A stretch of DNA of 64,000 nucleotides from Dehalococcoidales bacterium (GCA_020342155.1 CP070842.1:1108594-1172593); one strand, 5' to 3'; counted from the stretch's first letter, positions 12,710 to 30,940 are shown. Program-made: numbers and translations. Notes: generated from the letters alone by a model not told the origin.

Positions 12710-12785
12710 TGGTACCCTGGTGCGACTCGGACGCACGACACACGTCTTAGGAAACCGTTGCTCTATCCTACTGAGCTACAGGAGC
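12710..12785 (-). tRNA. degenerate copy of tRNA-Arg(CCT), probable pseudo-tRNA
   Basis: It aligns end to end with the intact gene at 30782-30858. However, it lacks one G in the 3' acceptor strand, has TCCGA instead of TTCGA in the T-loop, and has a broken anticodon stem (ACGGT / GACGT). Confidence 0.6.
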
Positions 12786-12840
12786 ATGTAGCCCGGTTTC
12801 GGGCAACCTCACCAGACACTCGCGTTGTACGTTGTCCACA

Positions 12841-12914
12841 CTCACCGCACAGGTGATTACAGCACGTTCTTTCCTTGTCAGTCACCACCGTTGTTGTTAT
12901 ACTGAAATTCACCC
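12841..12914. repeat. copy of the block upstream of tRNA-Arg (partner at 30866-30940)
   Basis: By manual alignment, ctcaccgcacaggtgattaYagcacgttctttccttgtcagtcaccaccgttgttgYtatact... is shared with only a few substitutions. Confidence 0.8.
12875..12903 (+). promoter_or_regulatory. sigma70-like promoter inside the duplicated block (TTGTCA-17-TATACT), facing the fmdE-like operon
   Basis: The hexamers and 17-nt spacer were read directly. The same sequence is present at 30900-30928. Confidence 0.45.
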
Positions 12915-12956
12915 GAAGCGTTGGCACCGTGACTGGCAGTCAAGTGGGATGAGAGA

Positions 12957-13577
12957 GTGATGAAGAACGTTACCTCCTCTGAAATCACCGTTTGCGGCCA
13001 TACTTATGATGAATACATCGAGATGATAAAAGCCTTCCACGGGCATGTTGCACCGGGAATGGTTATCGGTGGATTCATGGTTGACTTAGCCAACCGAAAT
13101 CTTCCGCAAGGTGAGTATTTTGATGCCATATGTGAGACCCGTGCCTGTCTTCCCGATGCCATTCAACTTCTTACCCCGTGTACGGTAGGTAATGGATGGT
13201 TAAGGGTTGTCGACCTAGGCCGGTTTGCCCTGTCGTTATTCGAAAAATATACGGGGGACGGTGTGCGGGTGTATGTGAATAGTCGGAAGCTCGATGACTG
13301 GCCCGAGATCAAAGCTTTCTTTTTCAAACTGACACCCAAGAAAGAACAGGATTCTGAGGCACTAATTGCTGAAATGAACCGCGCTCATACATCAATCCTT
13401 GGCGTTCAAAAAGTGACGATTGACCTGAATGCCATCAAATCCAGCCGCCGTGATGTTTTTACCACTTGTTGGTTGTGCGGTGAAGGTTATCCCGAAAATG
13501 ACGGCGAAATCTGTTTGGGCTGTCAAGGGAAAGCGCCTTATTCGCATTTTGAAATTCTGAGTTCGGGGGAAGATTAG
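12957..13577 (+). CDS. FmdE-family protein with C-terminal zinc-ribbon
   Basis: It has an FmdE-like core (FHGHVAPGMVIGGFM) and a C-terminal CWLCGE....CLGC. Confidence 0.75.
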   Translation: MMKNVTSSEITVCGHTYDEYIEMIKAFHGHVAPGMVIGGFMVDLANRNLPQGEYFDAICETRACLPDAIQLLTPCTVGNGWLRVVDLGRFALSLFEKYTGDGVRVYVNSRKLDDWPEIKAFFFKLTPKKEQDSEALIAEMNRAHTSILGVQKVTIDLNAIKSSRRDVFTTCWLCGEGYPENDGEICLGCQGKAPYSHFEILSSGED

Positions 13578-13622
13578 AGCTACCGCTCCAGTTACGAAAT
13601 AACTGTAGAGGAGGTACTGAGT

Positions 13623-15869
13623 ATGTTATGGAAGAAAACTGCCTGTGTATTGTGTGGCAATAGTTGCGGTCTGGAAGTCCAGGTTGAAGACAACCGTATC
13701 ATAAAAGTCCGCCCGGACAAGGATGACCCCAGGAGTGAAGGGTATTTATGTCGGAAGGGGATGAACATTGCTTTCCATCAGCACAATGCCGACCGTGTAC
13801 TCTATCCACTGAAGAGGGTGGGAGAGAAATTCGAACGGATTTCCTGGGATCAGGCAATCAGCGAGATTTCAGAAAAGCTCAAGGCGATACTCCAGCAACA
13901 CGGAGTGCGCTCTTTAGCCTCACTGGTCAGTATCGGGGAGTTCGGCTATGGCAACTACGGTCTCCAGTATTGCGCTCGCCTTGTCCGTAGGCTTGGCTCA
14001 CGGTACCAGTATTCAGCCGCCAACCAGGAATTTGCCGGTCGCTATTGGGCGCATGGTCTGACGCTGGGAAGTCAGGGAATGGGTCTGGCATCCGACTTTG
14101 AAAATACCGACATGCTGCTACTTGTCGGGAAGAACCCTCTGATGAGTCACAATTTCCCCCAGGCACGGAGAAGACTGACAAAGATGTCAAAGGACCCGGA
14201 GCGGCTCCTTGTGGTGGTCGACCCACGACTGTCGGAGACCGCTAAGATAGCGGATATTCATCTGGCAATCCGCCCCGGCACCGATGCTCTCCTCATCAAG
14301 TCTATGATTTCCATTATTCTCAGCGATGAGATGCATGACCAGGAATTCATAGGCAAATATACAAACGGATTCAGCGAGATACTACCGTGGTTTGCCGACT
14401 TTGATGTAAAGGCTGCGCTGAAGGTCTGTGAACTTGATTACGACCAGGTCTTCAAGGTCTGCCAGGAGTTCACCAGCCGAAAGTCGTGCCTGATTGATGA
14501 CCTTGGCATACTGATGAACCGGCACAGCGCGCTCGTCTCGTACCTGCTAGTTGTGCTGCTGGCTATCTGTGGTCGTATCAGCGTACCCGGGGGGAACTAC
14601 CTAGTAGGAGGTGGACCCAGCTCAGACCCGAACGACCCGCGGACGTGGCGAACACTGATAACGGATATTCCCGCCATCAATGGTCTGTTCCCTCCTAATG
14701 TGCTACCAGAAGAGATTATGAGTGACCATCCAGACCGTATCAGAGCCGTACTTACCTTTGCATCCAATCCGTTGCGTTCGTATGCCGATACAACTGCATA
14801 CGAAAATGCTTTTCGCCAGCTTGAGCTACTGGTTGTCACTGAAATAGCAATGAGTGAGACGGCCGCCCTGGCCCATTATGTTCTTCCTTCCAAGACAGCC
14901 TACGAATCATGGAGCGGCACTCTTAGCTCGGGTTCCCCGGAAGTTTATGGCTGGATACGGCGACCTGTTGTAGAGGCCGAAGGAGAGCAAAAAGAAGGTG
15001 GCGAGATATTCACGCTTCTGGCCGATGCCATGGGACTGATTCCTGAGCTACCCGAATCGCTCTATCAGGCTGCCAGAAGCGGCAACATCAGGGAATACCG
15101 GGATACGTTCAGGGACTATATGACTGCTAATCCTGAGAGCGGTAGATTCATGCAGTTCATCACCGCGAAAACCCTGGGCAATGCAATGGGTTCCGCTCAT
15201 TTGGCCGGTCTTTTCAGCATGTTGTTTCTACCGAGGCCCCGGGCAAGTCAGGAAGAGGCTGCAAAAGCCGGTTTTGCCGTGGGAGAAGACCAGGGCCTGG
15301 ACATATATAAGGCCATCATCGACCATATAGATGACCAGGAAGGCGTGCTGGTAGGAATACGCAGCCCAGCCGATCCATACAAGAATATCGAGTCAATAGC
15401 TACAGAGAACGGGAAAATCCAGCTTTATAATTCAGAGGTTGACGATTGGGTAAAAAAGATTAATGCGGATGCTGAAGAAAAATCACTAAAGCCCGATGAT
15501 GAATTCCCCCTGATTCTGATGGCAGGACGGCACATGGACATGAACGCCAATACGGAGATGCGAGACCCGGTATGGAACGAGGGCAGAAGGGCATGCACAC
15601 TGGCTATGCACCCGGCGGATGCAGAGGAACTGGGGCTTGCCGACAAACAGATGGTGAAGGTTATGACTGAAGCAGGGGAAGAAACAATAGAGGTCGAAGT
15701 GACCAAAGATACCAGGAAAGGGCAGGTCATCATTCCCCACGGATTTGGCCTAATCTATGATGGGGTGAAATACGGTGCCAATGTCAATCGGTTAACCAAG
15801 AACACCCATCGAGACCATGTCGGAACGCCAATGCATCGTTATATCCCCTGTCGTGTAGAACCGGTATGA
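13623..15869 (+). CDS. molybdopterin-dependent oxidoreductase (MopB superfamily, formate-dehydrogenase-like, cytoplasmic)
   Basis: It has the N-terminal Fe-S motif CVLCGNSCGLEV....CRKG, is 748 aa, and has a C-terminal molybdopterin dinucleotide-binding region. There is no Tat signal and no in-frame TGA. The RBS is GAGGAGGT. Confidence 0.85.
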   Translation: MLWKKTACVLCGNSCGLEVQVEDNRIIKVRPDKDDPRSEGYLCRKGMNIAFHQHNADRVLYPLKRVGEKFERISWDQAISEISEKLKAILQQHGVRSLASLVSIGEFGYGNYGLQYCARLVRRLGSRYQYSAANQEFAGRYWAHGLTLGSQGMGLASDFENTDMLLLVGKNPLMSHNFPQARRRLTKMSKDPERLLVVVDPRLSETAKIADIHLAIRPGTDALLIKSMISIILSDEMHDQEFIGKYTNGFSEILPWFADFDVKAALKVCELDYDQVFKVCQEFTSRKSCLIDDLGILMNRHSALVSYLLVVLLAICGRISVPGGNYLVGGGPSSDPNDPRTWRTLITDIPAINGLFPPNVLPEEIMSDHPDRIRAVLTFASNPLRSYADTTAYENAFRQLELLVVTEIAMSETAALAHYVLPSKTAYESWSGTLSSGSPEVYGWIRRPVVEAEGEQKEGGEIFTLLADAMGLIPELPESLYQAARSGNIREYRDTFRDYMTANPESGRFMQFITAKTLGNAMGSAHLAGLFSMLFLPRPRASQEEAAKAGFAVGEDQGLDIYKAIIDHIDDQEGVLVGIRSPADPYKNIESIATENGKIQLYNSEVDDWVKKINADAEEKSLKPDDEFPLILMAGRHMDMNANTEMRDPVWNEGRRACTLAMHPADAEELGLADKQMVKVMTEAGEETIEVEVTKDTRKGQVIIPHGFGLIYDGVKYGANVNRLTKNTHRDHVGTPMHRYIPCRVEPV

Positions 15870-15917
15870 CGCTAACGACAGGGTATTACTTTATCAGAAG
15901 GTATAAGGAGCAAAACA

Positions 15918-16619
15918 TTGAAAGAAGTGAATCAAAAGAGGCTTGGTAATCTACATTTTTCGGTCCGCCTAATCATCGGGATTCTGGTATTTGGTTCTAT
16001 CTGGGGATTCCTGGAGGCTACTCTGGGCGGATTTCTTCACATGGTTGTATTCCCTAACAAGGGTGCCATTATGAGCGGCATCGGTGTAGCTATTATGGCC
16101 TCGGCTTTAGCCATTTACAGGAAGCCGGTTATGCTGCCGGGAATAGGTATCGTGGCTGCCTCGTTTAAGCTACTCGACGTCTGGTTGTTCTCCTTGCCTA
16201 TTGGCAGCATCCATATAATAAACCCGGCCATGGCCATTGTTTTTGAATCGCTAGCTTTCGGTCTGGTTGCGATAATTATAACGAACAGAATAGCGAGGAA
16301 TGCCTTCATCGGGATTGGAGCAGGAGCTTTAGTAGGTATTATTAGCGCCATTGCCTGGGTCTATTTTGCCATATACGTAATGAATGCCCCTGCCTATGCC
16401 CGTGTGGTGTTTACAGCCGGGGAATTCATCACGAACCAGGGAGTACTACAGGCGGCCTTCTCTGCCATATTCCTGCCTCTGGGCTATCTGGCCAGTGAGA
16501 AGCTGGCGGCAAGGACTCCTCCATTGTTATCACGTCGGCCTGTCTACTTCGCTGTGTCAGCATCCGCAGTGATGTTCTGCTGGGGGATTAGTGCTCTGGC
16601 CATCGCGGCCGAGCTTTAG
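15918..16619 (+). CDS. polytopic membrane protein, unknown function
   Basis: The TTG start lies after AAGGAG. There are about six hydrophobic helices. It is tightly packed between the Mo-enzyme and the NTPase gene. Confidence 0.5.
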   Translation: MKEVNQKRLGNLHFSVRLIIGILVFGSIWGFLEATLGGFLHMVVFPNKGAIMSGIGVAIMASALAIYRKPVMLPGIGIVAASFKLLDVWLFSLPIGSIHIINPAMAIVFESLAFGLVAIIITNRIARNAFIGIGAGALVGIISAIAWVYFAIYVMNAPAYARVVFTAGEFITNQGVLQAAFSAIFLPLGYLASEKLAARTPPLLSRRPVYFAVSASAVMFCWGISALAIAAEL

Positions 16620-16627
16620 TCAAGGCG

Positions 16628-17149
16628 ATGGTTATTGTTATTACCGGTGCCATAGGCATTGGTAAGACTACTGTTTGTGAGAAGGTAATTGAGATAGCCC
16701 GAAGTCAGGGATATAGCTGTGGTGGTGTCATTGCTCATAAAATACAGAATGAGGACATCATCATTGAAGACGTTCAAACCGGCGAAACAAAGGTACTGGC
16801 CAGTACGAGCAACATCTATCAGGGCACTCAGACGCCGAAGTATTCCTTCAACCCTGAGGGTATCGACTTCGGGATTCAGGCAATAGACAGGGGAACTGAC
16901 TTAGACATTCTTCTGGTTGATGAGCTCGGTCATCTGGAACTACGTGGAGAGGGATTTGCCGATGTCGTTGAGAAGATAGCTGCCGGGAAGGTCAAGAACT
17001 GCATTCTGGTGATACGCAAGGAACTGCTTCCTGCTCTCCTACCTCAGCTGGGTGTAGCCACATCAGTCTTTGAGACCACCATTGGTAACCGTAACCAGCT
17101 ACCCCGAGAGATAGGTATGGTATTAAGCCAAGCAGCTACAGCAGACTAG
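16628..17149 (+). CDS. P-loop NTPase (THEP1/DUF2478-like)
   Basis: It has Walker A ITGAIGIGKTT and Walker B LLVDELG, and is 173 aa. Confidence 0.65.
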   Translation: MVIVITGAIGIGKTTVCEKVIEIARSQGYSCGGVIAHKIQNEDIIIEDVQTGETKVLASTSNIYQGTQTPKYSFNPEGIDFGIQAIDRGTDLDILLVDELGHLELRGEGFADVVEKIAAGKVKNCILVIRKELLPALLPQLGVATSVFETTIGNRNQLPREIGMVLSQAATAD

Positions 17150-17190
17150 AGATCAGTAAATTGGGAGATTGTTAAGTCAAAGGTAAAATC

Positions 17191-17233
17191 TGGTACCCCT
17201 AGTGCGACTCGAACGCACGGCACGCGGTTTAGG
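17191..17233 (-). repeat. 43-nt copy of the 3' half of tRNA-Arg(CCT) (att-like direct repeat)
   Basis: tggtacccctagtgcgactcgaacgcacggcacgcggtttagg matches 30782-30824 except at 3 positions. It ends in the anticodon loop. Confidence 0.7.
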
Positions 17234-17416
17234 TAATCACTCTATGGTTTGCCCTCTTCCGCCATTAGTCAAGAGTCTGTATAATGGCGAAGAGATGCCC
17301 AACTACCCGAGAGATATGACTGCATCCAGGGTTCATATTACCACAGCGACGATTTCAACCGGGCAATAATCGCCATAACCGAGTCAGGCAGATATAACCG
17401 AAAAGGAGTTCAGATA

Positions 17417-18211
17417 ATGGATTATGAGGACATCATCTATACCGAAGATGACGGCATCGCCACCATGACCCTTAATCGACCGGATGAAATGAATGCCCTC
17501 ACCCCCGGTATGCGGGAAAGCATGTACCAGGTAATCGAAAATATTACGAAGGATAAAACTGTGAGAGTGCTGATTATCACCGGTGCCGGTCGTGCCTTTT
17601 GCTCCGGTGCCGATGTTAAATCACTGGCTGGGAATGCTAACCGTCCAGTCAGCCAGAGAAGACCCGCTAGAACAGGCAGCGGTCGTGTCTCAGTTCATGT
17701 CCTCATGCAGAAATGTGAGAAACCGATAATTGCGGCAGTTAATGGAGTGGCCGCAGGTGCCGGGCTCGACCTTGCCCTAGCCTGTGACATCAGGATTGCT
17801 TCGGATAACGCCAGGTTCACAGAAGTCTATATACGCCGAGGACTTCTCCCTGTTGAAGGAGGTATTTATTTATTACCAAGAATTGTCGGAGTAGACAAAG
17901 CCTGTCAACTGATCTGGACAGGTGATATGATTGATGCCAGGGAAGCCGAGCGCATAGGGCTTGTAACTACGGTCATTCCCCATGACGAATTGGAAATCGC
18001 TACCAGAGAACTGGCCGAGAAGCTGGCCAAAGCAGCCCCGCTGGCGATTCAAAGGGCTAAACGTGCTATATACGCCGGGTTGGACATGAATCTGGAATCA
18101 AGTATGGAGTACATTCAGCCACTAATGAGAGAAATCATGCATTCGGAGGACCATAAAGAGGGAACGAAAGCATTTCTGGAAAAGAGAGAGCCAATATTCA
18201 GGGGAGAATAG
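17417..18211 (+). CDS. enoyl-CoA hydratase/isomerase (crotonase) family protein
   Basis: It has crotonase motifs (ITGAGRAFCSGADV, AAVNGVAAGAGLDLALACDIRIA) and an AAAAGGAG RBS. Confidence 0.85.
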   Translation: MDYEDIIYTEDDGIATMTLNRPDEMNALTPGMRESMYQVIENITKDKTVRVLIITGAGRAFCSGADVKSLAGNANRPVSQRRPARTGSGRVSVHVLMQKCEKPIIAAVNGVAAGAGLDLALACDIRIASDNARFTEVYIRRGLLPVEGGIYLLPRIVGVDKACQLIWTGDMIDAREAERIGLVTTVIPHDELEIATRELAEKLAKAAPLAIQRAKRAIYAGLDMNLESSMEYIQPLMREIMHSEDHKEGTKAFLEKREPIFRGE

Positions 18212-18263
18212 GCAGCGATACTAAAAAATGCCTACCCCCCCCCACTCAACATTGGAGGGATAA

Positions 18264-18380
18264 TTATCTTCGTCAGGACATGCAACAGTGGCATTTACAC
18301 TTGACACCTACAGTCATGTAGTGCCTGGGTTGTAGGAGGCTGCTGCAAGAGCTTTTGATGAGAATCTCAAAATCATTACT
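18264..18380 (+). pseudogene. relic of the C-terminus of a tyrosine recombinase (phage-type integrase)
   Basis: It translates to SGHATVAFTLDTYSHVVPGL*EAAARAFDENLKI. This is the GH..(x)TLDTYSH catalytic-Tyr box with a TAG where homologues usually have Gln. No upstream part of the gene remains. Confidence 0.6.
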
Positions 18381-18402
18381 CATTCGGGCGGAGGATAGAT
18401 AA

Positions 18403-19101
18403 ATGTCATATAAACGTTTGAATTCATATAAGGGACATCTTGGGCCTGCACAAGTCAGCGAAGGCATGAACCTTGCTCGTAAAAACGCTATTCGTTTGCT
18501 GGAGGATGCCAAAATCCTTTACGAAAATAACCGATATCCGTCCGCCACTGCCTTAGCTATTCTTTCCATTGAAGAATCTGGTAAAACGTCTATTCTCCGT
18601 CAGTTGTCTTTAGTTAAACCAGACGAAGAACTAAAAAATACTTGGAAGGAATATCGTTCTCATACCAAAAAGAACGTGCTGTGGACATTGCTTGATATGG
18701 TAAATAAAGGCGCACAACAATTGGATGACTTTAAACCTATGTTTGACCCTGCATCAGAACACCCTTATGTTTTGGATAATATTAAACAAATCAGTTTTTA
18801 CACTGATTGCTTAGGGCAAGCCCACTGGTCCAATCCATCTGAAATAATAAACAGGAATCTAGCCTCAAGTTTGATATTTGTTGCAGAAGCCTTATCTGTT
18901 GGTTATGAGATAACTACAAAAGAAATCGAGTTATGGATTAAACATCTCGGCAATGCAGATATTTCTTATGAAAGTCAGAAAAAGGCAGTACTTAATTGGT
19001 ATTATGATATGGAAAATAACGGTCTGTTGCCATCTGATTATAGCTTCACAGACGTAATGAAATGGCTTGGTTTCAATATCGACGATATATCCTCGGAATA
19101 G
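18403..19101 (+). CDS. AbiV-like (HEPN-type) abortive-infection family protein
   Basis: The N-terminal pattern NLARKNAIRLLEDAKILYENNRYPSATALAILSIEESGK matches what I recall of AbiV-family proteins. The gene is AT-rich and sits between two att-like repeats. Confidence 0.55.
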   Translation: MSYKRLNSYKGHLGPAQVSEGMNLARKNAIRLLEDAKILYENNRYPSATALAILSIEESGKTSILRQLSLVKPDEELKNTWKEYRSHTKKNVLWTLLDMVNKGAQQLDDFKPMFDPASEHPYVLDNIKQISFYTDCLGQAHWSNPSEIINRNLASSLIFVAEALSVGYEITTKEIELWIKHLGNADISYESQKKAVLNWYYDMENNGLLPSDYSFTDVMKWLGFNIDDISSE

Positions 19102-19121
19102 CAAAAGATTAGCAGAAACAT

Positions 19122-19159
19122 GAAGCCCTCTAAACATCTGTAACAAAGAGGGCTTTTTA
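19122..19159 (+). terminator. Rho-independent terminator after the AbiV-like gene
   Basis: GAAGCCCTCT ... AGAGGGCTT stem followed by a T run. Confidence 0.6.
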
Positions 19160-24185: not shown

Positions 24186-25166
24186 ATGTTAGCTGCAGTA
24201 ACCGGCGCCGCCGGACATCTGGGAGCGAATTTGGTTCGTTCTCTAATAAATAGAGATTGGCAAGTTAGAGCTGTTATCCATCATGATACCAAAGCTCTTG
24301 AGGGGCTTAATATTGAACGTGTTTCAGGAGACATCCTTGAGGAGGAATCTCTTAAGAGAGCATTAAACGGCGTTGATGTGGTCTTTCATCTTGCTGGACG
24401 AATATCAATTGTGAGCTGGGACCGTAAAGAGGTAGAAGCAGTCAATATTACCGGAGTGAAAAACGTGGTGGAAGTTTGTAAGTCCGCTGGAGTGAAAAGG
24501 CTAATACATACGAGTTCCTTTCATGCTCATAAACAGGAACCACTTGATGAACCACTTGACGAATCACGCCCACTCTATGACGGGAAATATCCGCCCTACA
24601 ACCACTCCAAAGCTGAAGGAGAAAAAATAGTTCGGGCAGCAATCGAGCAGGGTCTTGACACAATTATCATCAATCCGGGAGGAATGCTGGGCCCAAATGA
24701 CTTCAAACCTTCTCACTTCGGTTCAACACTACTTTCAATAGCTAAGGGTAAACTGCCGGCCCTGGTCAATGCTGGATTGTGCTGGGTAGATATTCGGGAC
24801 GTTGCTGAGGGTATGATAATTGCCTGCGAACATGCTGAAGCCGGGTCAAAGTTCATATTGAGCGGTAACTGGGTATCACTGGTAGATATAGCTCAAAAAG
24901 TAGCCACCATGATTGGCGTTAAACCACCTCCAATGGTATTACCTATGTGGATAGCCAAATCAAGTGCACCTTTAGCAACACTCCTCGATCAAATAAGAGG
25001 CAAACGTCCCCTGTTTACTCCAATTGCCATGAAAGAACTCGAGAGTAATCATAATATTAGTTATGCGAAGGCTAATAGAGAACTGGACTATGAGCCCCGA
25101 CCATTGGAGCAAACCTTATCTGACACCATAGACTGGTTTCAGAGAAACGGATTTCTAACTACATGA
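24186..25166 (+). CDS. NAD-dependent epimerase/dehydratase family (dihydroflavonol-reductase / HpnA-like)
   Basis: It has the VTGAAGHLGANLV motif and the YxxxK motif (YNHSK). Confidence 0.8.
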   Translation: MLAAVTGAAGHLGANLVRSLINRDWQVRAVIHHDTKALEGLNIERVSGDILEEESLKRALNGVDVVFHLAGRISIVSWDRKEVEAVNITGVKNVVEVCKSAGVKRLIHTSSFHAHKQEPLDEPLDESRPLYDGKYPPYNHSKAEGEKIVRAAIEQGLDTIIINPGGMLGPNDFKPSHFGSTLLSIAKGKLPALVNAGLCWVDIRDVAEGMIIACEHAEAGSKFILSGNWVSLVDIAQKVATMIGVKPPPMVLPMWIAKSSAPLATLLDQIRGKRPLFTPIAMKELESNHNISYAKANRELDYEPRPLEQTLSDTIDWFQRNGFLTT

Positions 25167-25179
25167 TATTGACACAATT

Positions 25180-25938
25180 ATGAATGACTTGGTATTGCGT
25201 TACGTATTGATTGCCTGGATTATCGTCGCGATTCTCGTGTTTATTTCCCTATTCTTCATAGACGCTCCTTACGGACGCTATTTTAGGCGTAGCTTTGGGC
25301 CATCTATCAAGGGAAGGCTCGGCTGGATGATTATGGAAGCACCTGCTCTACTGGTATTTGCTGCCATTTTTGTTGCAGATACTGGAACGGTAACTGTCGT
25401 ACAGATCACTTTCCTCACTATGTGGACAACTCACTACCTAGATAGATCATTCATCTATCCAATCAAACTAAGGATTTCTCCAAAACCATTACCACTAATC
25501 ATACTAATAACCGGTTTTGGATTTAACGTTACGAATGCCTACCTGAACAGTGAATACATTATTATTAATGCCCCAAAATACTCCGAAATCTGGCTATATG
25601 ACGCACGCTTCATCGCCGGTCTCGCCCTCTTTGCATTGGGCTTTATTATGAATCGCCATTCTGATTACATACTGTATCGTATAAGAAAAACGTTACGACA
25701 ACAATATCATATCCCGCAGGGAGGTTTATACCGATGGGTATCCTGTCCAAACTACCTTGGGGAGATTATTATGTGGTCCGGCTGGGCTATTAGTACGTGG
25801 TCGCCAGTAGCCGCCGCGTTTTCATTGTGGACCGTAGCCAATTTAGTACCACGAGCAAGGTCGCATCACCAATGGTACCAGAAACATTTCGTTGATTATC
25901 CCGGTGAAAGGCGTGTCATCATACCCTGGATATGGTAG
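25180..25938 (+). CDS. steroid 5-alpha-reductase-family membrane oxidoreductase
   Basis: It is polytopic. The C-terminal GGLYRWVSCPNYLGEIIMWSGWAI is the family signature. Confidence 0.65.
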   Translation: MNDLVLRYVLIAWIIVAILVFISLFFIDAPYGRYFRRSFGPSIKGRLGWMIMEAPALLVFAAIFVADTGTVTVVQITFLTMWTTHYLDRSFIYPIKLRISPKPLPLIILITGFGFNVTNAYLNSEYIIINAPKYSEIWLYDARFIAGLALFALGFIMNRHSDYILYRIRKTLRQQYHIPQGGLYRWVSCPNYLGEIIMWSGWAISTWSPVAAAFSLWTVANLVPRARSHHQWYQKHFVDYPGERRVIIPWIW

Positions 25939-26008
25939 CTAGCAGTTCACATAAGTCGCAGATTTAGGTATTATTAAGTACAGGTTTTTCTAGGGGAGGT
26001 TCGTTGAA

Positions 26009-26542
26009 ATGGAGACTCAGCATATAATTCTTCTAATTATCAATATCGTAGGAGGTATTGCCGTAATTGGTAGCTATATCGTTGGAATCAAAACACAACC
26101 GGGTGGGGCCAATGCCCTCTGGGGTGGAGTTCCACCGAATGTTAGACCAGTATACGGTGTTTCAATGGTCCTGTCAGCTCTCGGATACTTCGCTTTTCTC
26201 TATTTTATCCTATTCGAAATCGTACCTGACGAAGTATTAATTGGTGGACGATTTGATTTCAGTGTTTTTTACGTGATATTCCTCGTTATTCTCTTGCCCT
26301 CAGCATTATGGATGCCACTTACTAACGTGTATATCGGTAATCATAGAACAGGTATCAAGATCGGAGTTCGTATTATCCTGGCACTGGTAGGCCTGGCTTC
26401 GATAGCCCTTGTGTGGTCGATTCTCAGTCTGGAAACTAGAACTCCAAACGTTCCCTACTGGCTCGCGGTCGCCGGCAGTAGTTATTTTGCTTTCCATACC
26501 GCTATTTTAGACGGTATAATCTGGTCAATACTATTTAAATAG
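26009..26542 (+). CDS. integral membrane protein, unknown function
   Basis: It is 177 aa with about five hydrophobic helices and a GGGGAGG-type RBS. Confidence 0.5.
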   Translation: METQHIILLIINIVGGIAVIGSYIVGIKTQPGGANALWGGVPPNVRPVYGVSMVLSALGYFAFLYFILFEIVPDEVLIGGRFDFSVFYVIFLVILLPSALWMPLTNVYIGNHRTGIKIGVRIILALVGLASIALVWSILSLETRTPNVPYWLAVAGSSYFAFHTAILDGIIWSILFK

Positions 26543-26610
26543 GTTTAACCGAATAACTTGTAGTGAATCGTGAATCGAAAATGTATAGGAAGGAAAATCA
26601 AGAGATAGCC

Positions 26611-26955
26611 ATGAAAGTCGACTTCTATTGCTGGGCAAAATGAAATACCTGTCGTAAGGCGAAGGAGTATCTTTCGCAAAAGAACCTGGAAATCAACGAG
26701 CGTGATTTCTTCAAGAATCCCTTCAACCGGACGGAGATCGAGGAGTTGCTCCAAGGGAAATCTGCTTCTGTGATGTTCAACTTCAGAAGCCCCAGCTTCA
26801 AGCAGCTCGGTCTGGAGCGAGATAAACTTAGCGATAGTGAACTAGTCGATTTTATGTTAAAAGAACCAAGACTTGTCCGCAGGCCTGTGGTTCGTATTGG
26901 TGACAGAGTATATTATAGCGCTGATAAGTCAGTTCTGGAGGGTTTAGTAGGTTAG
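26611..26955 (+). CDS. ArsC/Spx/YffB-family thioredoxin-fold protein with in-frame TGA at codon 11 (candidate selenoprotein, otherwise a pseudogene)
   Basis: The sequence reads MKVDFYCWAK-TGA-NTCRKAKEYL... in a single frame through to the ORF-track fragment 26746-26955. The TGA (26641-26643) aligns with the first Cys of the family CxxC motif. The downstream RSPSFKQLGL and EPRLVRRPVV match the family. Confidence 0.55.
26659..26677 (+). other. hairpin 15 nt downstream of the in-frame TGA (possible bacterial SECIS)
   Basis: GCGAAGGA-GTA-TCTTTCGC forms 8 pairs including one G-U. There is a GU in the apical region. Confidence 0.35.
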
Positions 26956-26956
26956 T

Positions 26957-27418
26957 ATGGAGCGGTTGAACCCGGAGAAACTCCATGTAACGTACTTAAC
27001 CGGCACTACTCCTGAGAGTCTCGTGTTACCCAGACGTTACACGCTGACTCACTCTGATATTTCAGGCAAGCTCTTTCTCTCCATCGGTAGTGATTATGAT
27101 ACACGGAAGACTTCTAAATTATATACCAGACTAATGAGGGATGAAGTATTGGCAGAATTAGTAGACGAGGGAGAAGGTCCTGTATTCAGGGTGCACTGTC
27201 ATGTCAGTGGAGGATTTGTTTTTGGTAGGGCTAAGTGGCGGTATGATATCTTCCAATCTGAACTACCGCTCGTGTTGGAAGCTATAAGATACGGTGATAG
27301 GACACTATTTGAATATAATCCAGAACTCGACAACAGCCTGATATTCATAAAATTCCATTCAACTGATAGCAAGTTTGATAAGGTCGAAAATTGGGGTACC
27401 ATGCTCAGATACAACTGA
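26957..27418 (+). CDS. Staygreen (SGR, Mg-dechelatase) family protein
   Basis: RRYTLTHSDISGKL, RDEVLAE and VHCHVSGG are hallmark SGR motifs. The ATG lies 1 nt after the ArsC-family stop codon. Confidence 0.8.
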   Translation: MERLNPEKLHVTYLTGTTPESLVLPRRYTLTHSDISGKLFLSIGSDYDTRKTSKLYTRLMRDEVLAELVDEGEGPVFRVHCHVSGGFVFGRAKWRYDIFQSELPLVLEAIRYGDRTLFEYNPELDNSLIFIKFHSTDSKFDKVENWGTMLRYN

Positions 27419-27512
27419 GGTAACAAAATAGTAGATTGTTATATAACCCTAATTATCCAGCAACATGTTAGGCGGTTAGGCGAAGAGAAAACGACCGTAT
27501 ATCAGCGTATCA

Positions 27513-27554
27513 GAGCGGGCGCTCAGTCACAAGGAGATTCTGGAGGCGTAGGGT
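27513..27554 (+). repeat. cassette-junction repeat, copy 0 (3' part only)
   Basis: gag cgg gcg ctc agt cac aag gag att ctg gag gcg tag translates to ERALSHKEILEA*, which aligns with copies 1-3. Confidence 0.65.
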
Positions 27555-27576
27555 CTCTCAGTAAAGGAGAAGGACC

Positions 27577-28395
27577 ATGCCATTCGCTAAAGTTCGTGAT
27601 ATTCAGATGTATTATGAAATCCACGGGGCAGGGCCTCGTCTGCTCTGCATCAGTGGTACGGGTGGTGATCTTAGACAAAAGCCAAATGTTTTTGATTCAC
27701 CACTATCAGCCCACTTTGAAATCCTAGCCTATGATCAACGCGGTCTTGGTCAAACAGATAAACCAGACATCCCTTATACTATGACGGACTACGCCTTAGA
27801 TGCCGACAGCCTACTAGATGTCATTGGCTGGGAAGGCTGCTTTGTAATCGGAGCATCGTTCGGTGGCATGGTGGCCCAAGAGTTCGCATTACGCAGTCCC
27901 CAACGGGTGGAGCGGTTGGTACTAGCCTGTACGAGTAGTGGTGGTGCAGGAGGGTCGTCATACCCGATTCACGAATTTGTTGATCTATCTCCACGGGAAA
28001 GGGCACTTCGTTTCCTGCAACTCAGTGACACCCGACTTGATACGGCATGGCAATCCGCAAATCCAGAACGGTTCGCTCAACTGATCGAGCAAATGGTAGA
28101 AGGATATGTGATCGGCGCAAACGAGTCAGGCCAGGAAATAGGTGCTCGCCGCCAGTTAGAAGCGCGTATCGGACACGACACTTATGATCGCCTTCCCAAA
28201 CTCCAGATGCCTGTTTTTATCATTGGTGGCCGCTACGACGGTATAGCTCCAGTCTCAAATCTCGAAGCAATGCACAAGCAGATACCTCATGCCCGTCTAG
28301 AGCTGTTCGAGGGTGGGCATATGTTTATGCTTCAAGATGCCCGGGTGTATAGTCGCATTTCGGCGTTCCTGCATGATGAACTGGACCAAGCATGA
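27577..28395 (+). CDS. alpha/beta hydrolase
   Basis: It has the nucleophile elbow GASFGG, a C-terminal GGHMF His region, and an AAAGGAGAAGG RBS. Confidence 0.85.
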   Translation: MPFAKVRDIQMYYEIHGAGPRLLCISGTGGDLRQKPNVFDSPLSAHFEILAYDQRGLGQTDKPDIPYTMTDYALDADSLLDVIGWEGCFVIGASFGGMVAQEFALRSPQRVERLVLACTSSGGAGGSSYPIHEFVDLSPRERALRFLQLSDTRLDTAWQSANPERFAQLIEQMVEGYVIGANESGQEIGARRQLEARIGHDTYDRLPKLQMPVFIIGGRYDGIAPVSNLEAMHKQIPHARLELFEGGHMFMLQDARVYSRISAFLHDELDQA

Positions 28396-28437
28396 TATAC
28401 GGAATCCCATGTGCTCGGATACCTCGACTTTGTCATC

Positions 28438-28520
28438 AATGAAATCCGCGAGATGGATATGCAGCCCTCACTGGAGAGGGCGCTGAGAGAAAAGGAGACT
28501 CTGGGGGCGTAGAAAGATAC
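28438..28520 (+). repeat. cassette-junction repeat, copy 1
   Basis: It encodes ...NEIREMDMQPSLERALREKETLGA* (micro-ORF 28459-28512) and contains the hairpin GCCCTC-actgga-GAGGGC (28464-28481). Confidence 0.75.
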
Positions 28521-28622
28521 AACAACCGTAATTCTGAAGCTTGTAATCTCCTTGACAACACACCCTTCAAGCCCTACCATTAGCCCTGGTCACATATTAC
28601 TGCTGAATGGGGGGACAATACC

Positions 28623-29693
28623 ATGTCCAGTGGTGCAGCCATCGGACGTATCGGTATACTCTGGCGGGGTGATACAACAAAGCCACCTCCACCTCGCGAA
28701 GAGAACAGGTTAAGAGGCGTTTTCGACGCCTTGGAAGCCCGTCAAATCGTTGGGGAGCCGGTGGTGTATTCGGATGAAGCTGCTGATCAAGTGTACAAAC
28801 AGCTTATCGACTTGGACGGTGTACTCGTTTGGGTGGATCCGATTGTCAGAGGCCAAGACCGGTCACGGCTGGATGCCATACTACGGGACGTGGTGTCGCA
28901 GGGTGTGTGGGTAAGTGCCCATCCCGACATCATCATGACGATGGGCACAAAGGAAGTCCTCCACCGCACACGTGACCTAGGGTGGGGAACGGATACCCAC
29001 CTATATCACACTCCCGACGAGTTGACGGAGGGACTTTTCCGGCTTCTCCCGTCAGGCCCGAGGGTGGTGAAGCAGCATCGCGGTAACGGAGGTAATGGCA
29101 CGTGGAAGGTGGAGTTGATACGCAGTGCCTCCCCTATAAATGAAATCGCCGTGCGGGTACTTCACGCACTGCGCGGTAGCGTGATTGAGGAGATGCGGCT
29201 TGGTGACTTCGTCCAGCGTTGTCAGCCCTACTTCGACAATTCGGGCTGTTTAATCGACCAGCCGTTCATGGAACGTTTGGGAGATGGGATGATTCGCTGC
29301 TATCTTGTACAAGACAGAGTAGCCGGTTTCGGATTTCAGTTTGTCAAAGCGCTTTTAGCTCCGCCACCAGGGGTCAACCCTGAAGATGTGGAAGTCCCGC
29401 CGCGCCTGTACTACGGGCCGCAGAAACCCGAGTTTCAGGTGATAAAAGCCATACTTGAATCGGAGTGGATTCCCCAGATGCAGCGGTTGCTTGATATTGA
29501 CACAGAGTCGCTTCCGGCTATCTGGGATGCCGATTTCCTGTATGGGTTGAAGACCGCGACTGGCGAGGATACCTATGTACTGTGCGAGGTCAACGTTCAG
29601 TCGGTATACCCTTTCCCGGAGGAGGCATTGGAACCGTTGGCACAGGCTGCCATGGAGAGGATGGTCGTCGCCAAGAGTATACGCCAACGCTGA
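28623..29693 (+). CDS. ATP-grasp-like protein, unknown substrate
   Basis: VVKQHRGNGGNGTWKV and a late YVLCEVNV segment resemble ATP-grasp nucleotide-binding elements. The family assignment is tentative. Confidence 0.5.
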   Translation: MSSGAAIGRIGILWRGDTTKPPPPREENRLRGVFDALEARQIVGEPVVYSDEAADQVYKQLIDLDGVLVWVDPIVRGQDRSRLDAILRDVVSQGVWVSAHPDIIMTMGTKEVLHRTRDLGWGTDTHLYHTPDELTEGLFRLLPSGPRVVKQHRGNGGNGTWKVELIRSASPINEIAVRVLHALRGSVIEEMRLGDFVQRCQPYFDNSGCLIDQPFMERLGDGMIRCYLVQDRVAGFGFQFVKALLAPPPGVNPEDVEVPPRLYYGPQKPEFQVIKAILESEWIPQMQRLLDIDTESLPAIWDADFLYGLKTATGEDTYVLCEVNVQSVYPFPEEALEPLAQAAMERMVVAKSIRQR

Positions 29694-29743
29694 GAAAAGT
29701 CACAGGCGCTCGTACCTGATCAACCAATATAATATTGGGATTA

Positions 29744-29802
29744 AGATGCAACCTTCACTGGAGAGGGCACTGAGGCACAAGGAGATACTAGGGACGTAGG
29801 GC
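29744..29802 (+). repeat. cassette-junction repeat, copy 2
   Basis: The micro-ORF 29746-29799 encodes MQPSLERALRHKEILGT*. The hairpin is retained with a U-G pair (CCTTC...GAGGG). Confidence 0.75.
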
Positions 29803-29889
29803 TCCGGTTATATTCAACACCTCTTCCAGATAGTTGCCGTATAGTACTAAAGAAAGAAATATTATCTATAGATATCGGGAGCCTCAACA

Positions 29890-30675
29890 ATGGAGAATCG
29901 ACGAAATAATTCCCAACAAGCCTCCCACCCTGGAGGAGATACCCAGTTCTGGCAAGATGAGAGAGTGCAGAAGTACGACTACCAGCAGCAGCTTCTCTCT
30001 GAGAAAAAGGAAGATGTACAAGCAAATATCACCAGAATAGTAAATTACTTCTGTCAGTTGCATTCGATAGGTGAGCCCAAAATACTCGATGTTGGGTGCG
30101 GCCCGGGAACCCCGATGACCCTATCCTCATATATTCTAGATAGAGTTCCGCGAAGTATCTTGGTTGGAGTAGATTCGTCAGAACAGATGGTTGAAGCTGC
30201 TAAAGGAATCCTCGTACCGAAATATGGTAACAGGTTTTCAAGTTTTGTTAGTGACTTTAACTCCGACAGTTTCTGGATGCCAGAGATTGATAGCAAGTAT
30301 GACTTTATCGTATCGTCTGGCACACTTCACTACCTGTCAGATAAGAGAACACTTCCATTCATGAAGGAAATTTTCAATCATATCAAGGACAGGGGTGTAT
30401 TTGTTAGTTGTATGGGAAGCCACCCCACAATTCAAGAGATTGCTGAAATGGTACATCTCTTTCGTGTAGAGTTTACCTACAATCAGCTTGAAGAAGAGAA
30501 ACGCCCTAGGGAGTTCCCAGAGTTTAAGAAGATATTTGAAGAAACAGATAGAAAGGCAAATGTAAATTGGCGGAGCTCCAAAGATTGGTTAGGCGCTATA
30601 CAGAGTGCCGGATTCAGGAAAGTCGATATTGTCTGGCATCTGTGGGTAAGAAGCATCTATCTGGCGCTAGCCTGA
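29890..30675 (+). CDS. class I SAM-dependent methyltransferase
   Basis: It has motif I ILDVGCGPGTP and the post-I acidic motif VGVDSS. Confidence 0.8.
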   Translation: MENRRNNSQQASHPGGDTQFWQDERVQKYDYQQQLLSEKKEDVQANITRIVNYFCQLHSIGEPKILDVGCGPGTPMTLSSYILDRVPRSILVGVDSSEQMVEAAKGILVPKYGNRFSSFVSDFNSDSFWMPEIDSKYDFIVSSGTLHYLSDKRTLPFMKEIFNHIKDRGVFVSCMGSHPTIQEIAEMVHLFRVEFTYNQLEEEKRPREFPEFKKIFEETDRKANVNWRSSKDWLGAIQSAGFRKVDIVWHLWVRSIYLALA

Positions 30676-30682
30676 TATGTAG

Positions 30683-30765
30683 AACGAGTTCTGCGAGATG
30701 AAGATGCAGCCCTCGCTAGAGAGGGCACGGAGGCACAAGGAGATACTGGGGGCTTAGAAAGGTAC
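30683..30765 (+). repeat. cassette-junction repeat, copy 3, ending about 17 nt from the tRNA 3' end
   Basis: It encodes NEFCEMKMQPSLERARRHKEILGA* (micro-ORF 30704-30757) and contains the hairpin GCCCTC-gctaga-GAGGGC. Confidence 0.75.
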
Positions 30766-30781
30766 CACGAATTTAACAATT

Positions 30782-30858
30782 TGGTACCCCTGGTGCGACT
30801 CGAACGCACGACACACGGTTTAGGAAACCGTTGCTCTATCCTACTGAGCTACAGGGGC
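30782..30858 (-). tRNA. tRNA-Arg (anticodon CCT), CCA encoded
   Basis: The reverse complement folds by hand as a 77-nt cloverleaf. Its parts are acceptor GCCCCTG/CAGGGGT, D-arm GCTC-AGTAGGATA-GAGC, anticodon arm ACGGT-TTCCTAA-ACCGT, T-arm GTGCG-TTCGAGT-CGCAC, and A-CCA. Confidence 0.9.
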
Positions 30859-30865
30859 TTGCAGG

Positions 30866-30940
30866 CTCACCGCACAGGTGATTATAGCACGTTCTTTCCT
30901 TGTCAGTCACCACCGTTGTTGCTATACTAAACTTCACCCC
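30866..30940. repeat. block upstream of tRNA-Arg (partner at 12841-12914)
   Basis: See the partner feature. In this copy the block starts 7 nt from the tRNA 5' end. In the decayed copy, 55 nt intervene. Confidence 0.8.
30900..30928 (+). promoter_or_regulatory. sigma70-like promoter TTGTCA-17-TATACT facing the TolB-like gene
   Basis: Read directly. It is a duplicate of 12875-12903. Confidence 0.45.

What the first reader, a model, noticed from the sequence alone, without database searches (positions are those of the whole stretch)
12710..30940. Serial island accretion at tRNA-Arg(CCT): intact gene, decayed full-length twin and two 3'-half att-like fragments
Four co-oriented copies of the same tRNA sequence are visible on the minus strand.
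- 30782-30858 is a foldable tRNA-Arg(CCT).
- 12710-12785 is a full-length copy with a deleted acceptor base, a TCCGA T-loop and a broken anticodon stem.
- 17191-17233 and 19172-19216 are copies of only the 3' half, ending in the anticodon loop. This is the classic footprint of tyrosine-integrase insertion into a tRNA gene.
- The two half copies also share flanks with each other (aaaatc on one side, taYggtttRccc on the other), which suggests related elements.

The full copies additionally share a block of about 75 nt upstream of the tRNA. This fits a Campbell-type insertion over a longer homology, or duplication of the whole locus.

The enclosed 18 kb is a mosaic with visibly uneven base composition. 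It holds the FmdE/Mo-enzyme module, a crotonase plus AbiV-like gene, a photolyase, a lipid/isoprenoid-type operon, a Staygreen homologue and single-gene cassettes. No intact integrase remains, only a C-terminal relic at 18264-18380. The array therefore appears old and immobilised.
Basis: partly seen in the sequence, partly recalled or inferred. Interest (0 to 1): 0.7.

Follow-up and report, generated by a model that had tools for sequence, protein, structure and literature searches.

The report
Gene islands stacked at a tRNA-Arg gene
In this uncultured Dehalococcoidales genome, mobile DNA has repeatedly inserted at one arginine tRNA gene, leaving tRNA fragments, a dead integrase stub and a decayed second tRNA copy; this is a well-known way of building genomic islands, here found in a little-studied lineage.

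Summary
The minus strand carries an intact tRNA-Arg(CCT) (tA, 30858-30782) and a decayed full-length twin with the same promoter block (tB, 12786-12711). It also carries two 3'-half copies that start in the anticodon loop (h1 19216-19172, h2 17233-17191).

The tyrosine-integrase reading holds:
- 18276-18380 encodes the last 35 codons of an integrase, including the catalytic Tyr; weaker similarity extends back to 18225.
- In full-length relatives, the 3' end of the gene abuts a tRNA gene.
- The 1.94 kb unit between h2 and h1 (ECH, integrase stub, AbiV) is precisely absent from two related contigs, which keep a single att copy.
- In a third relative the same unit sits beside the intact tRNA, with a different defence cargo.
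- The 11.6 kb between tA and h1 keeps its end sequences in relatives, but its cargo differs.

Two points need correcting:
- The FmdE/Mo-enzyme block (12921-17190) is conserved backbone in relatives, not an island.
- tB is an old, independently decaying paralogue. Its promoter block still carries a plus-strand promoter-like site facing FmdE.

"Immobilised" is too strong. The mobile parts are 92-94% identical to a relative, against 83-87% for the backbone.

Verdict: an ordinary accretion and decay array (CIME-like). It is a new member of a known kind.

The parts
30782..30858 (-). tA: intact tRNA-Arg(CCT) with encoded CCA. It is the attL-side copy, at the syntenic position next to the carboxyltransferase gene.
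   Evidence: ARAGORN. Rfam tRNA 65.2 bits. 100% identical to the tRNA of relatives L002 and L003, which lies 150-250 bp upstream of their carboxyltransferase gene.
30866..30940 (.). Promoter block A: a bidirectional promoter-like block upstream of tA.
   Evidence: Minus strand GTGACT-18-TATAAT with an extended -10. Plus strand TTGTCA-17-TATACT. Conserved in L002 and L003.
19217..30781 (.). Variable island between tA and h1 (11.6 kb): photolyase, PNPOx, STAS, FAD oxidoreductase, epimerase, steroid dehydrogenase, ArsC fragment, Staygreen, hydrolase, DUF6815 and methyltransferase. No integrase.
   Evidence: Pfam. Both ends are conserved in relatives while the cargo differs. L002 carries a C25-like 1420-aa gene, L187 carries RACo/MTTB genes, and L182 has the same photolyase side at 92-94% identity. 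GC is 0.41-0.53 by sub-block.
19217..19396 (.). x_A: the distal arm of the island, always attached to the half copy. It contains the GGGTAAACCGTA motif and a terminator-like hairpin.
   Evidence: 85-94% identical next to half copies in L002 (4543-4724), L182 (14282 onward) and L187 (7647-7791).
19172..19216 (-). h1: tRNA 3' half, positions 33-77, 45/45 identical to tA. It is the att copy between the island and E2.
17234..19171 (+). E2: a 1.94 kb non-autonomous integrative unit made of x2 arm, enoyl-CoA hydratase, integrase relic, AbiV and y2 arm.
   Evidence: Precisely absent from L182 and L187, where the BLAST blocks 12758/12951-17233 and 19166-19899/19361 overlap by 49 nt, the att sequence. 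Present beside the intact tRNA in L003 with PDC-M24A/B in place of AbiV.
17417..18211 (+). Enoyl-CoA hydratase (crotonase) gene, the left part of E2.
   Evidence: Pfam ECH_1 5e-66. 92.8% nt identity to L003 and 94.5% to L182, with third-position-biased changes.
18225..18380 (+). Tyrosine-integrase C-terminal relic (..GHATVAFTLDTYSHVVPGL*EAAARAFDENL) with in-frame stops. The clear part is 18276-18380.
   Evidence: Translation. Aligns to the last residues of 365-411 aa integrases, including LGH and the catalytic Y. tblastn gives 3e-15 to P0012, and this is the only integrase-like hit in the window. 114 database homologues, some carrying PF00589.
18403..19101 (+). AbiV-type HEPN defence gene in the cargo slot between the integrase stop and att.
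   Evidence: Pfam HEPN_AbiV 5e-41. PADLOC AbiV 4.6e-10. The whole relic-AbiV-y2 block is 74.5% identical to L190, where it abuts an intact tRNA-Arg(CCT).
19102..19171 (.). y2 arm: a terminator-like hairpin plus a tandem ATTAGCAAAAG motif.
   Evidence: Conserved in L003, L190, L192 and L082 next to tRNA-Arg(CCT).
17191..17233 (-). h2: tRNA 3' half, positions 35-77, 93% identical. It is the att copy between E2 and the FmdE block.
12921..17190 (+). S1: FmdE, molybdopterin oxidoreductase, an unknown 233-aa gene and NTPase_1. This operon is conserved backbone, not an island.
   Evidence: Pfam. Collinear at 78-85% nt in L182, L185 and L187, flanked by MFS/EcKL/MarR and by tB remnants.
12841..12918 (.). 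Promoter block B. The minus-strand -10 is degraded (TGTAAT). The plus-strand promoter-like site facing FmdE is kept.
   Evidence: B-type blocks in the window and L182 share derived bases.
12711..12786 (-). tB: the decayed full-length tRNA-Arg(CCT) twin, preceded by a 54-nt leader at 12787-12840.
   Evidence: ARAGORN. Rfam 35.4 bits with three defects. In L182 only positions 1-20 survive, fused to the ECH 3' flank. In L187 only positions 38-70 survive.

Best explanation
**What it is.** The tRNA-Arg(CCT) gene next to the carboxyltransferase gene is the chromosomal attachment site for a family of integrative elements in uncultured marine Dehalococcoidales. The genus-level source is inferred from MAG record titles.

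**How insertion works.** A tyrosine integrase lies with its 3' end converging on the tRNA 3' end. It recombines an element-borne copy of the tRNA segment, running from the anticodon loop to CCA plus about 6 nt, with the gene. Each insertion rebuilds the tRNA and leaves a 45-49 nt direct repeat at the far end.

**What the window holds, in tRNA orientation.**
1. tA.
2. An 11.6 kb flexible island with conserved arms.
3. h1.
4. E2, a decayed 1.94 kb element carrying an integrase stub, an AbiV defence gene and a crotonase gene.
5. h2.
6. The conserved FmdE operon.
7. tB, an old redundant tRNA-Arg(CCT) paralogue that is rotting.

The promoter block of tB probably now serves the FmdE operon.

**Status of E2.** E2 no longer encodes a recombinase. 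Any later movement must have used an integrase supplied in trans, or homologous recombination between att copies. It behaves like a cis-mobilizable element (CIME).

**How the cargo changes.** The cargo between the integrase stop and att is probably replaced in two steps. An intact related element inserts at the tRNA. A deletion then occurs between the homologous integrase 3' ends.

**Shown:** the repeats, the relic, the family architecture, the empty sites, the cargo differences and the decay of tB.
**Inferred:** the order of events, trans-mobilisation and the accretion-deletion cargo swap.
For: **Repeats**
- Across 2.03 Mb of fetched loci, the 3'-half copies occur only in related Dehalococcoidales contigs, and most start at tRNA position 33-35; shorter 3' remnants start further in. 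Some integrase-adjacent full tRNAs match tA only in their 5' half.

**Relic**
- The relic aligns to the catalytic C-terminus.
- In 46 of 60 metagenome loci with full-length family members, a tRNA gene lies within 140 bp of the integrase stop. In 31 of these the two genes converge. One locus, L121, has tRNA-Arg(CCT).
- Relic-type ORFs sit 80-500 bp from tRNA-Arg(CCT) in L082-L087, L090, L190 and L192.

**Empty site for E2**
- L182/L183 and L187/L188 are independent assemblies. Both have NTPase | one half copy | x_A, and the flanking homology blocks overlap by exactly the 49-nt att.
- L003 has tRNA, then y2, PDC-M24B/A, relic, ECH and x2, then a half copy.

**Flexible island**
- L002, L182 and L187 keep x_A, and L002 also keeps the tRNA-proximal flank. 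The cargo differs.

**Age difference against L182**

| Segment | nt identity |
|---|---|
| MFS gene (backbone) | 86.9% |
| FmdE block (backbone) | 82.7% |
| ECH with x2 | 92.4% |
| Island | 92.6-93.7% |

**Cargo-swap signal, window against L003**

| Segment | nt identity | Substitutions by codon position |
|---|---|---|
| ECH | 92.8% | third-position biased |
| Decayed spacer | 84.4% | 2, 5, 3 (no bias) |
| Relic | 77.5% | 4, 1, 11 |
| Beyond the relic | none | not applicable |

**Decay of tB:**
**Promoter sites:**
Against: - No intact integrase was found in the window, and the rest of the genome could not be read.
- No excision product or circular form was observed.
- All comparators are MAG or metagenome contigs. 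The empty-site junction is, however, seen in two divergent lineages and four assemblies.
- The order of events is ambiguous. Either E2 entered the tRNA before the 11.6 kb island (classical serial accretion), or it entered the half copy afterwards.
- The integrase mechanism does not explain tB, a full-length copy with its promoter.
- The island next to tA shows no recombinase trace. Its tRNA-proximal flank is the relic of an unrelated gene tail. Part of its turnover may therefore come from plain homologous recombination rather than integration.
- No full-length integrase more than about 70% identical to the relic type was found among 1.84 billion representative proteins.
Confidence: 0.78

Rival explanations
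1. The array arose without site-specific recombination. Segmental duplications and RecA-mediated recombination between tRNA-derived repeats shuffled a native chromosomal region. On this view the integrase stub is an unrelated pseudogene.
For: - tB is a whole-gene duplicate that includes its promoter, which integration cannot produce.
- The FmdE block is native backbone.
- The island beside tA has no recombinase trace.
- L003 could be derived from a two-copy ancestor by deletion across the promoter blocks.
Against: - The 3'-half copies in at least four independent lineages start within 3 nt of one another in the anticodon loop. A few shorter 3' remnants start further in.
- The copies carry conserved arm motifs outside the tRNA sequence.
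- The relic family is physically linked to tRNA-Arg(CCT) in many unrelated contigs.
- Its full-length relatives are tRNA-adjacent integrases.
- Duplication alone would not create a precise insertion flanked by 49-nt repeats.
Confidence: 0.12
2. Both full-length copies are working tRNA-Arg(CCT) genes (a two-gene family), and the half copies are incidental.
For: - ARAGORN calls both copies.
- tB still exceeds the Rfam gathering score when searched with relaxed filters (35.4 against 29 bits).
- tB keeps an upstream block.
Against: - tB has lost 30 bits relative to tA. It has an acceptor-stem deletion, a broken anticodon-stem pair and T54>C.
- Its -10 hexamer is degraded to TGTAAT.
- In L182 and L187 the same locus is reduced to 20-33 nt fragments.
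Confidence: 0.05
3. The integrase stub, the y2 arm and the att copy together form a maintained cassette slot. E2 is still an active, trans-mobilised cargo shuttle rather than debris.
For: - The same stub, y2 and att frame holds five different contents: AbiV, PDC-M24A/B, a GT2 gene, an unknown 140-aa ORF, or nothing.
- Substitutions in the stub are 80-90% third-position.
- E2 occupies three different att contexts in the window, L003 and L182.
- All 114 word-indexed homologues are 90 aa or shorter.
Against: - The stub has in-frame stops here, and other copies have lost catalytic motifs.
- Truncation points differ between lineages, as expected from random decay.
- Third-position bias is also expected if divergence happened while the donor integrases were intact.
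- No helper integrase has been identified.
Confidence: 0.25

Closest known systems
Tandem accretion of ICE/IME elements with decayed cis-mobilizable elements (CIMEs), as with ICESt1/ICESt3 in Streptococcus thermophilus. Reviewed in PMC5704250, which cites Pavlovic 2004 and Bellanger 2011.
   Same: The scheme has three steps: site-specific integration at the 3' end of a gene, decay to an element that keeps attL and attR but has no integrase, and then integration of a further element at an att copy. E2, flanked by h1 and h2, fits the CIME definition.
   Different: The target here is a tRNA anticodon loop in Dehalococcoidales. No conjugation or mobilisation genes are present. Cis-mobilisation has not been shown.
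ssrA-specific genomic islands of Dehalococcoides (PMC3146451).
   Same: Both occur in the same bacterial class. Both show multiple tandem islands downstream of one small-RNA gene, each bounded by a direct repeat of its 3' end. Some islands lack integration genes, and cargo is strain-specific.
   Different: Those islands use a CcrB-like serine recombinase (DsiB), a 20-bp repeat and the tmRNA T-loop. Here the recombinase is a tyrosine recombinase relic, the repeat is 45-49 nt and the target is the tRNA-Arg(CCT) anticodon loop.
Tycheposon-seeded genomic islands of Prochlorococcus (bioRxiv 10.1101/2020.12.28.424599).
   Same: Both show islands next to tRNA genes that hold partial tRNA copies, fragmented integrases and mostly non-element cargo. 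New arrivals push older material further inward.
   Different: No tycheposon replication, primase or PICI-like module is present. The relation of this integrase to tycheposon recombinases was not tested.
Anticodon-loop class of tRNA integration sites used by phage and island tyrosine integrases (Williams 2002, Nucleic Acids Res; cited from my own knowledge).
   Same: The repeat begins in the anticodon loop and runs through the tRNA 3' end. The integrase gene lies next to the reconstituted tRNA.
   Different: The crossover position is inferred from repeat boundaries only.
Defence-gene hotspots at fixed positions of P2/P4-like prophages and satellites (Rousset et al. 2022; cited from my own knowledge).
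   Same: A fixed slot, here between the integrase stop and att, carries alternative anti-phage genes such as AbiV or PDC-M24.
   Different: The host element is a 1-3 kb remnant with no phage genes.

Membership tests
tRNA-targeting tyrosine-integrase integrative element or genomic island | The element is bounded by a direct repeat of the tRNA 3' segment, with one copy completing a functional tRNA. | tested here: met
   tA, h1 and h2 are 45/45 and 40/43 identical and co-oriented. The same holds in L002, L003, L182 and L187.
tRNA-targeting tyrosine-integrase integrative element or genomic island | The element encodes a tyrosine recombinase next to att. | tested here: inconclusive
   Only a C-terminal relic with stop codons is present (35 clear codons, with weaker similarity over about 50). 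Intact relatives show the expected position and orientation.
tRNA-targeting tyrosine-integrase integrative element or genomic island | Presence/absence polymorphism with a precise empty site. | tested here: met
   L182/L183 and L187/L188 lack E2 and keep one att copy between the same flanks.
tRNA-targeting tyrosine-integrase integrative element or genomic island | Excision to a circular form, with recombination at the att core. | not testable with these tools
   This needs read-level data or an experiment.
Cis-mobilizable element (CIME) | [quoted passage not shown] | tested here: met
   h1 and h2 flank E2. Pfam, PADLOC and tblastn show no intact recombinase or transfer gene.
Cis-mobilizable element (CIME) | Mobilised together with, or by, a related element that supplies the integrase. 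| not testable with these tools
   The evidence is indirect only: E2 occupies three att contexts in the window, L003 and L182.
Tycheposon | A tRNA-specific recombinase together with a replication module (primase or helicase) or a PICI-like module. | tested here: not met
   No such genes lie between 12710 and 30940.
Dehalococcoides ssrA genomic island | DsiB serine recombinase module and a 20-bp ssrA repeat. | tested here: not met
   The target is tRNA-Arg(CCT), the relic is a tyrosine recombinase, and no serine recombinase domain was found.
Integron cassette array (considered for the three single-gene units at 27577-30781) | An IntI integrase with attI, and cassettes each ending in a folded attC. 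| tested here: not met
   No IntI is present. The repeated 60-80 nt units are coding relics of a protein C-terminus (..EMKMQPSLERALRHKEILGA*) that forms the end of a 1059-aa gene in L002.

The most novel reading that the evidence does not exclude
The last codons of a dead integrase gene, the y2 arm and the tRNA-derived att copy may persist as a recombination frame. Single cargo genes, mostly anti-phage genes, would be exchanged in this frame across Dehalococcoidia by cycles of accretion and deletion. Integrase-less mini-elements such as E2 would still move between the intact tRNA, its pseudogene twin and orphan half sites, using an integrase supplied in trans.
Probability: 0.25. Interest if true: 0.5.

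Novelty: new member of a known kind. Interest (0 to 1): 0.3.

Why it matters
- It identifies tRNA-Arg(CCT) as a flexible-genome hotspot in uncultured marine Dehalococcoidales.
- It shows that orphan tRNA halves can be used as landmarks to delimit islands in their MAGs.
- It flags a pseudo-tRNA that annotation pipelines will call as a gene.
- It warns that a conserved operon enclosed by att-like repeats need not be horizontally acquired.

The biology itself, integration followed by decay and accretion, is textbook.

Tried and rejected
- **Dispersed-repeat reading: rejected.** There are only four copies in the window. In 2 Mb of fetched loci the 3'-half copies occur only at homologous Dehalococcoidales loci.
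- **Integron-like reading of the three single-gene units: rejected.** The repeats are C-terminal coding relics.
- **Pfam and PDB sequence searches did not recognise the 44-55 aa relic**. Recognition came from homologues and from the alignment.
- **Exact att sequences were absent from IMG/VR**. Viral relatives of the integrase C-terminus are only 50-63% identical, though they do sit at provirus ends.
- **L005 is too distant to serve as an empty site.** There the tRNA is followed directly by hisF, but none of its flanking genes occurs in the window.
- **MarR homologues in more distant relatives are not next to any tRNA**. The predicted arrangement of tRNA followed by marR could therefore not be found.
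- **The leader length (short or long) was dropped as a marker of A-type or B-type identity.** L003 combines an A-type promoter block with a long leader, and L182 has an intermediate leader.
- **Homology between the tB downstream flank and y2 was examined.** It is limited to a roughly 15-nt trailer common to all copies, so it is uninformative.
- **The source NCBI contig (2.3 Mb) could not be retrieved.** Only a Logan contig was returned, and it breaks inside tB.

Full report
**1. Observation check**

ARAGORN finds two tRNA-Arg(CCT) genes on the minus strand, tA at 30858-30782 and tB at 12786-12711. The Rfam tRNA model gives tA 65.2 bits. It gives tB only 35.4 bits, because of a gap in acceptor pair 3:70, a mismatched anticodon-stem pair and U54>C.

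A 35-nt probe from the 3' half hits 30782-30816 and 19172-19206 exactly, and 17191-17225 with three mismatches. None is expected in shuffled sequence. By BLAST, h1 (19216-19172) covers tRNA positions 33-77 at 45/45 identity, and h2 (17233-17191) covers positions 35-77.

A self-comparison of the window shows no other copies. It also recovers the shared block upstream of both full copies. tB differs by an extra 54-nt leader.

**2. Source and comparators**

The MarR and FmdE proteins are 100% identical to proteins of an NCBI "MAG: Dehalococcoidales bacterium" on a 2.3 Mb contig. The comparators are:

| Locus | Source | Similarity to the window |
|---|---|---|
| L002 | Dehalococcoidia MAG W156 | about 87% nt |
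| L003 | Dehalococcoidales MAG | 85-91% nt |
| L182/L183 | ENA assemblies | 83-94% nt |
| L187/L188 | ENA and JGI assemblies | 84-87% nt |
| L185, L190, L192 | more distant contigs | lower |

In L002, L003 and L005 a tRNA-Arg(CCT) lies 150-250 bp upstream of the carboxyltransferase gene. tA is therefore the syntenic copy.

**3. The integrase relic and its family**

The plus strand at 18225-18380 reads ..HSTLEG*LSSSGHATVAFTLDTYSHVVPGL*EAAARAFDENL. Pfam and PDB searches were blind to so short a piece.

A protein search returned 114 homologues. Several carry PF00589 or are named integrase, and they read ..LRLHDLRHTHATLMLKSGVHPKIVSERLGHATVAFTLDTYSHVVPGLQEAAAKAFD. An exhaustive search found full-length 365-411 aa relatives. 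The relic aligns to their extreme C-terminus, including the LGH motif and the catalytic tyrosine.

In 46 of 60 metagenome loci that encode full-length members, a tRNA gene lies within 140 bp of the integrase stop. In 31 of these the tRNA converges on the integrase. One locus (L121) has tRNA-Arg(CCT). Relic-type ORFs themselves converge on tRNA-Arg(CCT) at 80-500 bp in several marine contigs.

The window layout matches this architecture: relic, then AbiV, then h1 on the opposite strand. tblastn with ten family members finds nothing else in the 64 kb.

**4. E2 is a discrete integrative unit**

In L182/L183 and in L187/L188, the NTPase gene is followed by a single half copy and then directly by the sequence that follows h1 in the window. 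The two homology blocks (to window ..17233 and to 19166..) overlap by 49 nt, which is the att sequence. These contigs are therefore empty sites for window 17234-19171.

In L003 the same unit lies immediately beside the intact tRNA and is closed by a half copy. It contains the x2 arm, the crotonase gene and the relic. AbiV, however, is replaced by a PDC-M24A/B pair.

In L182 the crotonase part sits inside tB instead. tRNA positions 1-20 are fused by a deletion to the crotonase 3' flank, and a 31-nt 3' fragment lies on the other side.

More distant contigs keep the right-hand frame next to an intact tRNA-Arg(CCT):
- L190 has relic, AbiV and y2, 74.5% identical over 957 nt.
- L192 has a 25-nt att fragment, the relic, a GT2 gene and y2.
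- L087 carries an unknown 140-aa ORF in the slot.
- L082 carries nothing in the slot.

The slot between the integrase stop and att is therefore a cargo position, and where the cargo is identifiable it is often a defence gene.

**5. The island between tA and h1**

Its distal arm x_A (19217-19396) stays attached to a half copy in L002, L182 and L187. Its tRNA-proximal flank is shared with L002. The cargo differs between genomes:

| Genome | Cargo |
|---|---|
| Window | photolyase through methyltransferase |
| L182 | same photolyase side, with an IS1595 insertion |
| L002 | a 1420-aa C25-like gene |
| L187 | RACo/MTTB genes |

In L002 the epimerase-to-Staygreen genes lie outside the half copy, so the 11.6 kb is itself composite. 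It contains no recombinase trace.

**6. The FmdE block and the twin**

The order FmdE, Mo-oxidoreductase, unknown gene, NTPase is collinear in L182, L185 and L187. In L182 and L187 it is bounded on one side by a half copy with x_A. On the other side it is bounded by remnants of tB and then EcKL, MarR or MFS genes. It is backbone, not an island.

tB is full-length but damaged in the window. It is reduced to 20 nt plus 31 nt in L182 and to about 33 nt in L187. B-type promoter blocks in the window and L182 share bases that distinguish them from all A-type blocks. The duplication therefore predates these lineages.

The minus-strand promoter-like site GTGACT-18-TATAAT is present in block A. In block B the -10 has become TGTAAT. 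The plus-strand site TTGTCA-17-TATACT survives in both blocks, facing the carboxyltransferase side in A and FmdE in B. My inference is that selection on FmdE expression has preserved the block while the tRNA decays.

Integration duplicates only the 3' segment, so the origin of tB needs another event. Candidates are Campbell-type recombination of a circle carrying a whole tRNA locus, or a segmental duplication. This remains unresolved.

**7. Mechanism and history**

The shared repeat boundary in the anticodon loop, the arm motifs (GGKYAAACCRYA in both x arms, a tandem ATTAGCAAAAG in y2) and the relic together argue for tyrosine-integrase recombination.

Two orders of events fit the data:
- E2 entered the tRNA first and the island entered second. 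This is classical accretion.
- The island entered first and E2 later used the orphan half site.

Against L182, the island and E2 are 92-94% identical, while the MFS gene and the FmdE block are 83-87% identical. The mobile parts are therefore younger than the backbones.

Between the window and L003, identity changes along E2:

| Segment | nt identity | Substitutions by codon position |
|---|---|---|
| Crotonase gene | 92.8% | third-position biased |
| Decayed spacer | 84.4% | no bias |
| Relic | 77.5% | 4, 1, 11 |
| Beyond the relic | none | not applicable |

The same third-position excess appears against L082 and L087. I read this as replacement of the right-hand part (relic, cargo, y2) from donors whose integrase was still functional. 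The simplest route is insertion of an intact element at the tRNA, followed by deletion between the two integrase 3' ends. This is an inference.

**8. Comparison with known systems**

The pattern is the integration, decay, CIME and accretion scheme described for ICE/IME tandems (PMC5704250). It also matches the tandem ssrA islands of Dehalococcoides, which use a serine recombinase (PMC3146451). It resembles the tRNA-anchored islands of Prochlorococcus, which hold partial tRNAs and fragmented integrases (10.1101/2020.12.28.424599).

No paper in the searched library links Dehalococcoidia, genomic islands and tRNA-Arg. This is therefore a new member of a known kind.

**9. Caveats**

- The comparators are metagenome assemblies.
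- The rest of the source genome was not readable.
- No excision product was observed.
- GC content is heterogeneous across the whole window, 0.39-0.53 within the locus against 0.50 overall. It does not separate island from backbone.

Noticed in passing
window 28445-28523, 29739-29799, 30690-30768; L002 9698-9756 and 21154-21244: Three 60-80 nt direct repeats each follow a single gene (hydrolase, DUF6815, methyltransferase). They are relics of one protein C-terminus (..EMKMQPSLERALRHKEILGA*). The last relic ends 11 nt from the tRNA 3' end. In L002 the same tail ends a 1059-aa AAA/TPR-type protein. After the hydrolase, the tail continues in frame behind a stop codon. This suggests repeated gene replacement upstream of a retained 3' tail.
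   Followed up: partly
window 31011-31045 and 31037-32317: A lipoprotein gene (MKIIRNTLLALLVLIILIGGC.., weak PD40 match) is inserted between the tRNA promoter and the carboxyltransferase gene. It is absent from L002 and L003. A decayed copy of the first 12 carboxyltransferase codons (ATAGTCTGGCAATCGGTTATTGCCGAACTGAAATAA) marks the old start, and the real gene starts at 32318.
   Followed up: partly
window 39924-40123 and 43511-43707: A 200-bp inverted repeat (91.5% identical) flanks two family III CoA-transferase genes and a DsrE-like gene. This segment is inverted in L003 relative to the window.
   Followed up: partly
one search hits P0001-P0114; loci L082-L092, L190-L192: All 114 word-indexed homologues of the integrase stub are 33-90 aa. 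Many sit on long contigs beside tRNA-Arg(CCT), and their truncation points differ. In the exhaustive search, no full-length integrase was more than about 70% identical over the 85-aa query. Either the search is biased, or this integrase lineage survives mainly as stubs.
   Followed up: partly
L182 14993-17188: An IS1595-family transposase plus two small ORFs interrupt the photolyase gene in this relative.
   Followed up: no
L185 16697-20612: In a more distant relative the FmdE block and a crotonase gene are followed by terminase-small-like, HTH_17 and Prim-Pol/PriCT genes. This is probably another integrated element. No tRNA-Arg fragment was detected there.
   Followed up: no
window 26746-26955: A 69-aa ORF matches only the middle of the ArsC family (profile positions 16-68 of 79). 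It is likely a gene fragment inside the island.
   Followed up: no
L151 1901-1943: A tRNA-Arg(CCT) 3' half (positions 33-75, 91% identical) occurs in a sediment metagenome contig. It lies 4 kb from a family integrase that itself abuts tRNA-Ser(TGA).
   Followed up: no
L001 (Logan SRR14739665 contig, 99.9% identical to window 6814-12776): An independent short-read assembly of the same organism breaks inside tB, as expected where a repeat confuses the assembly graph.
   Followed up: no
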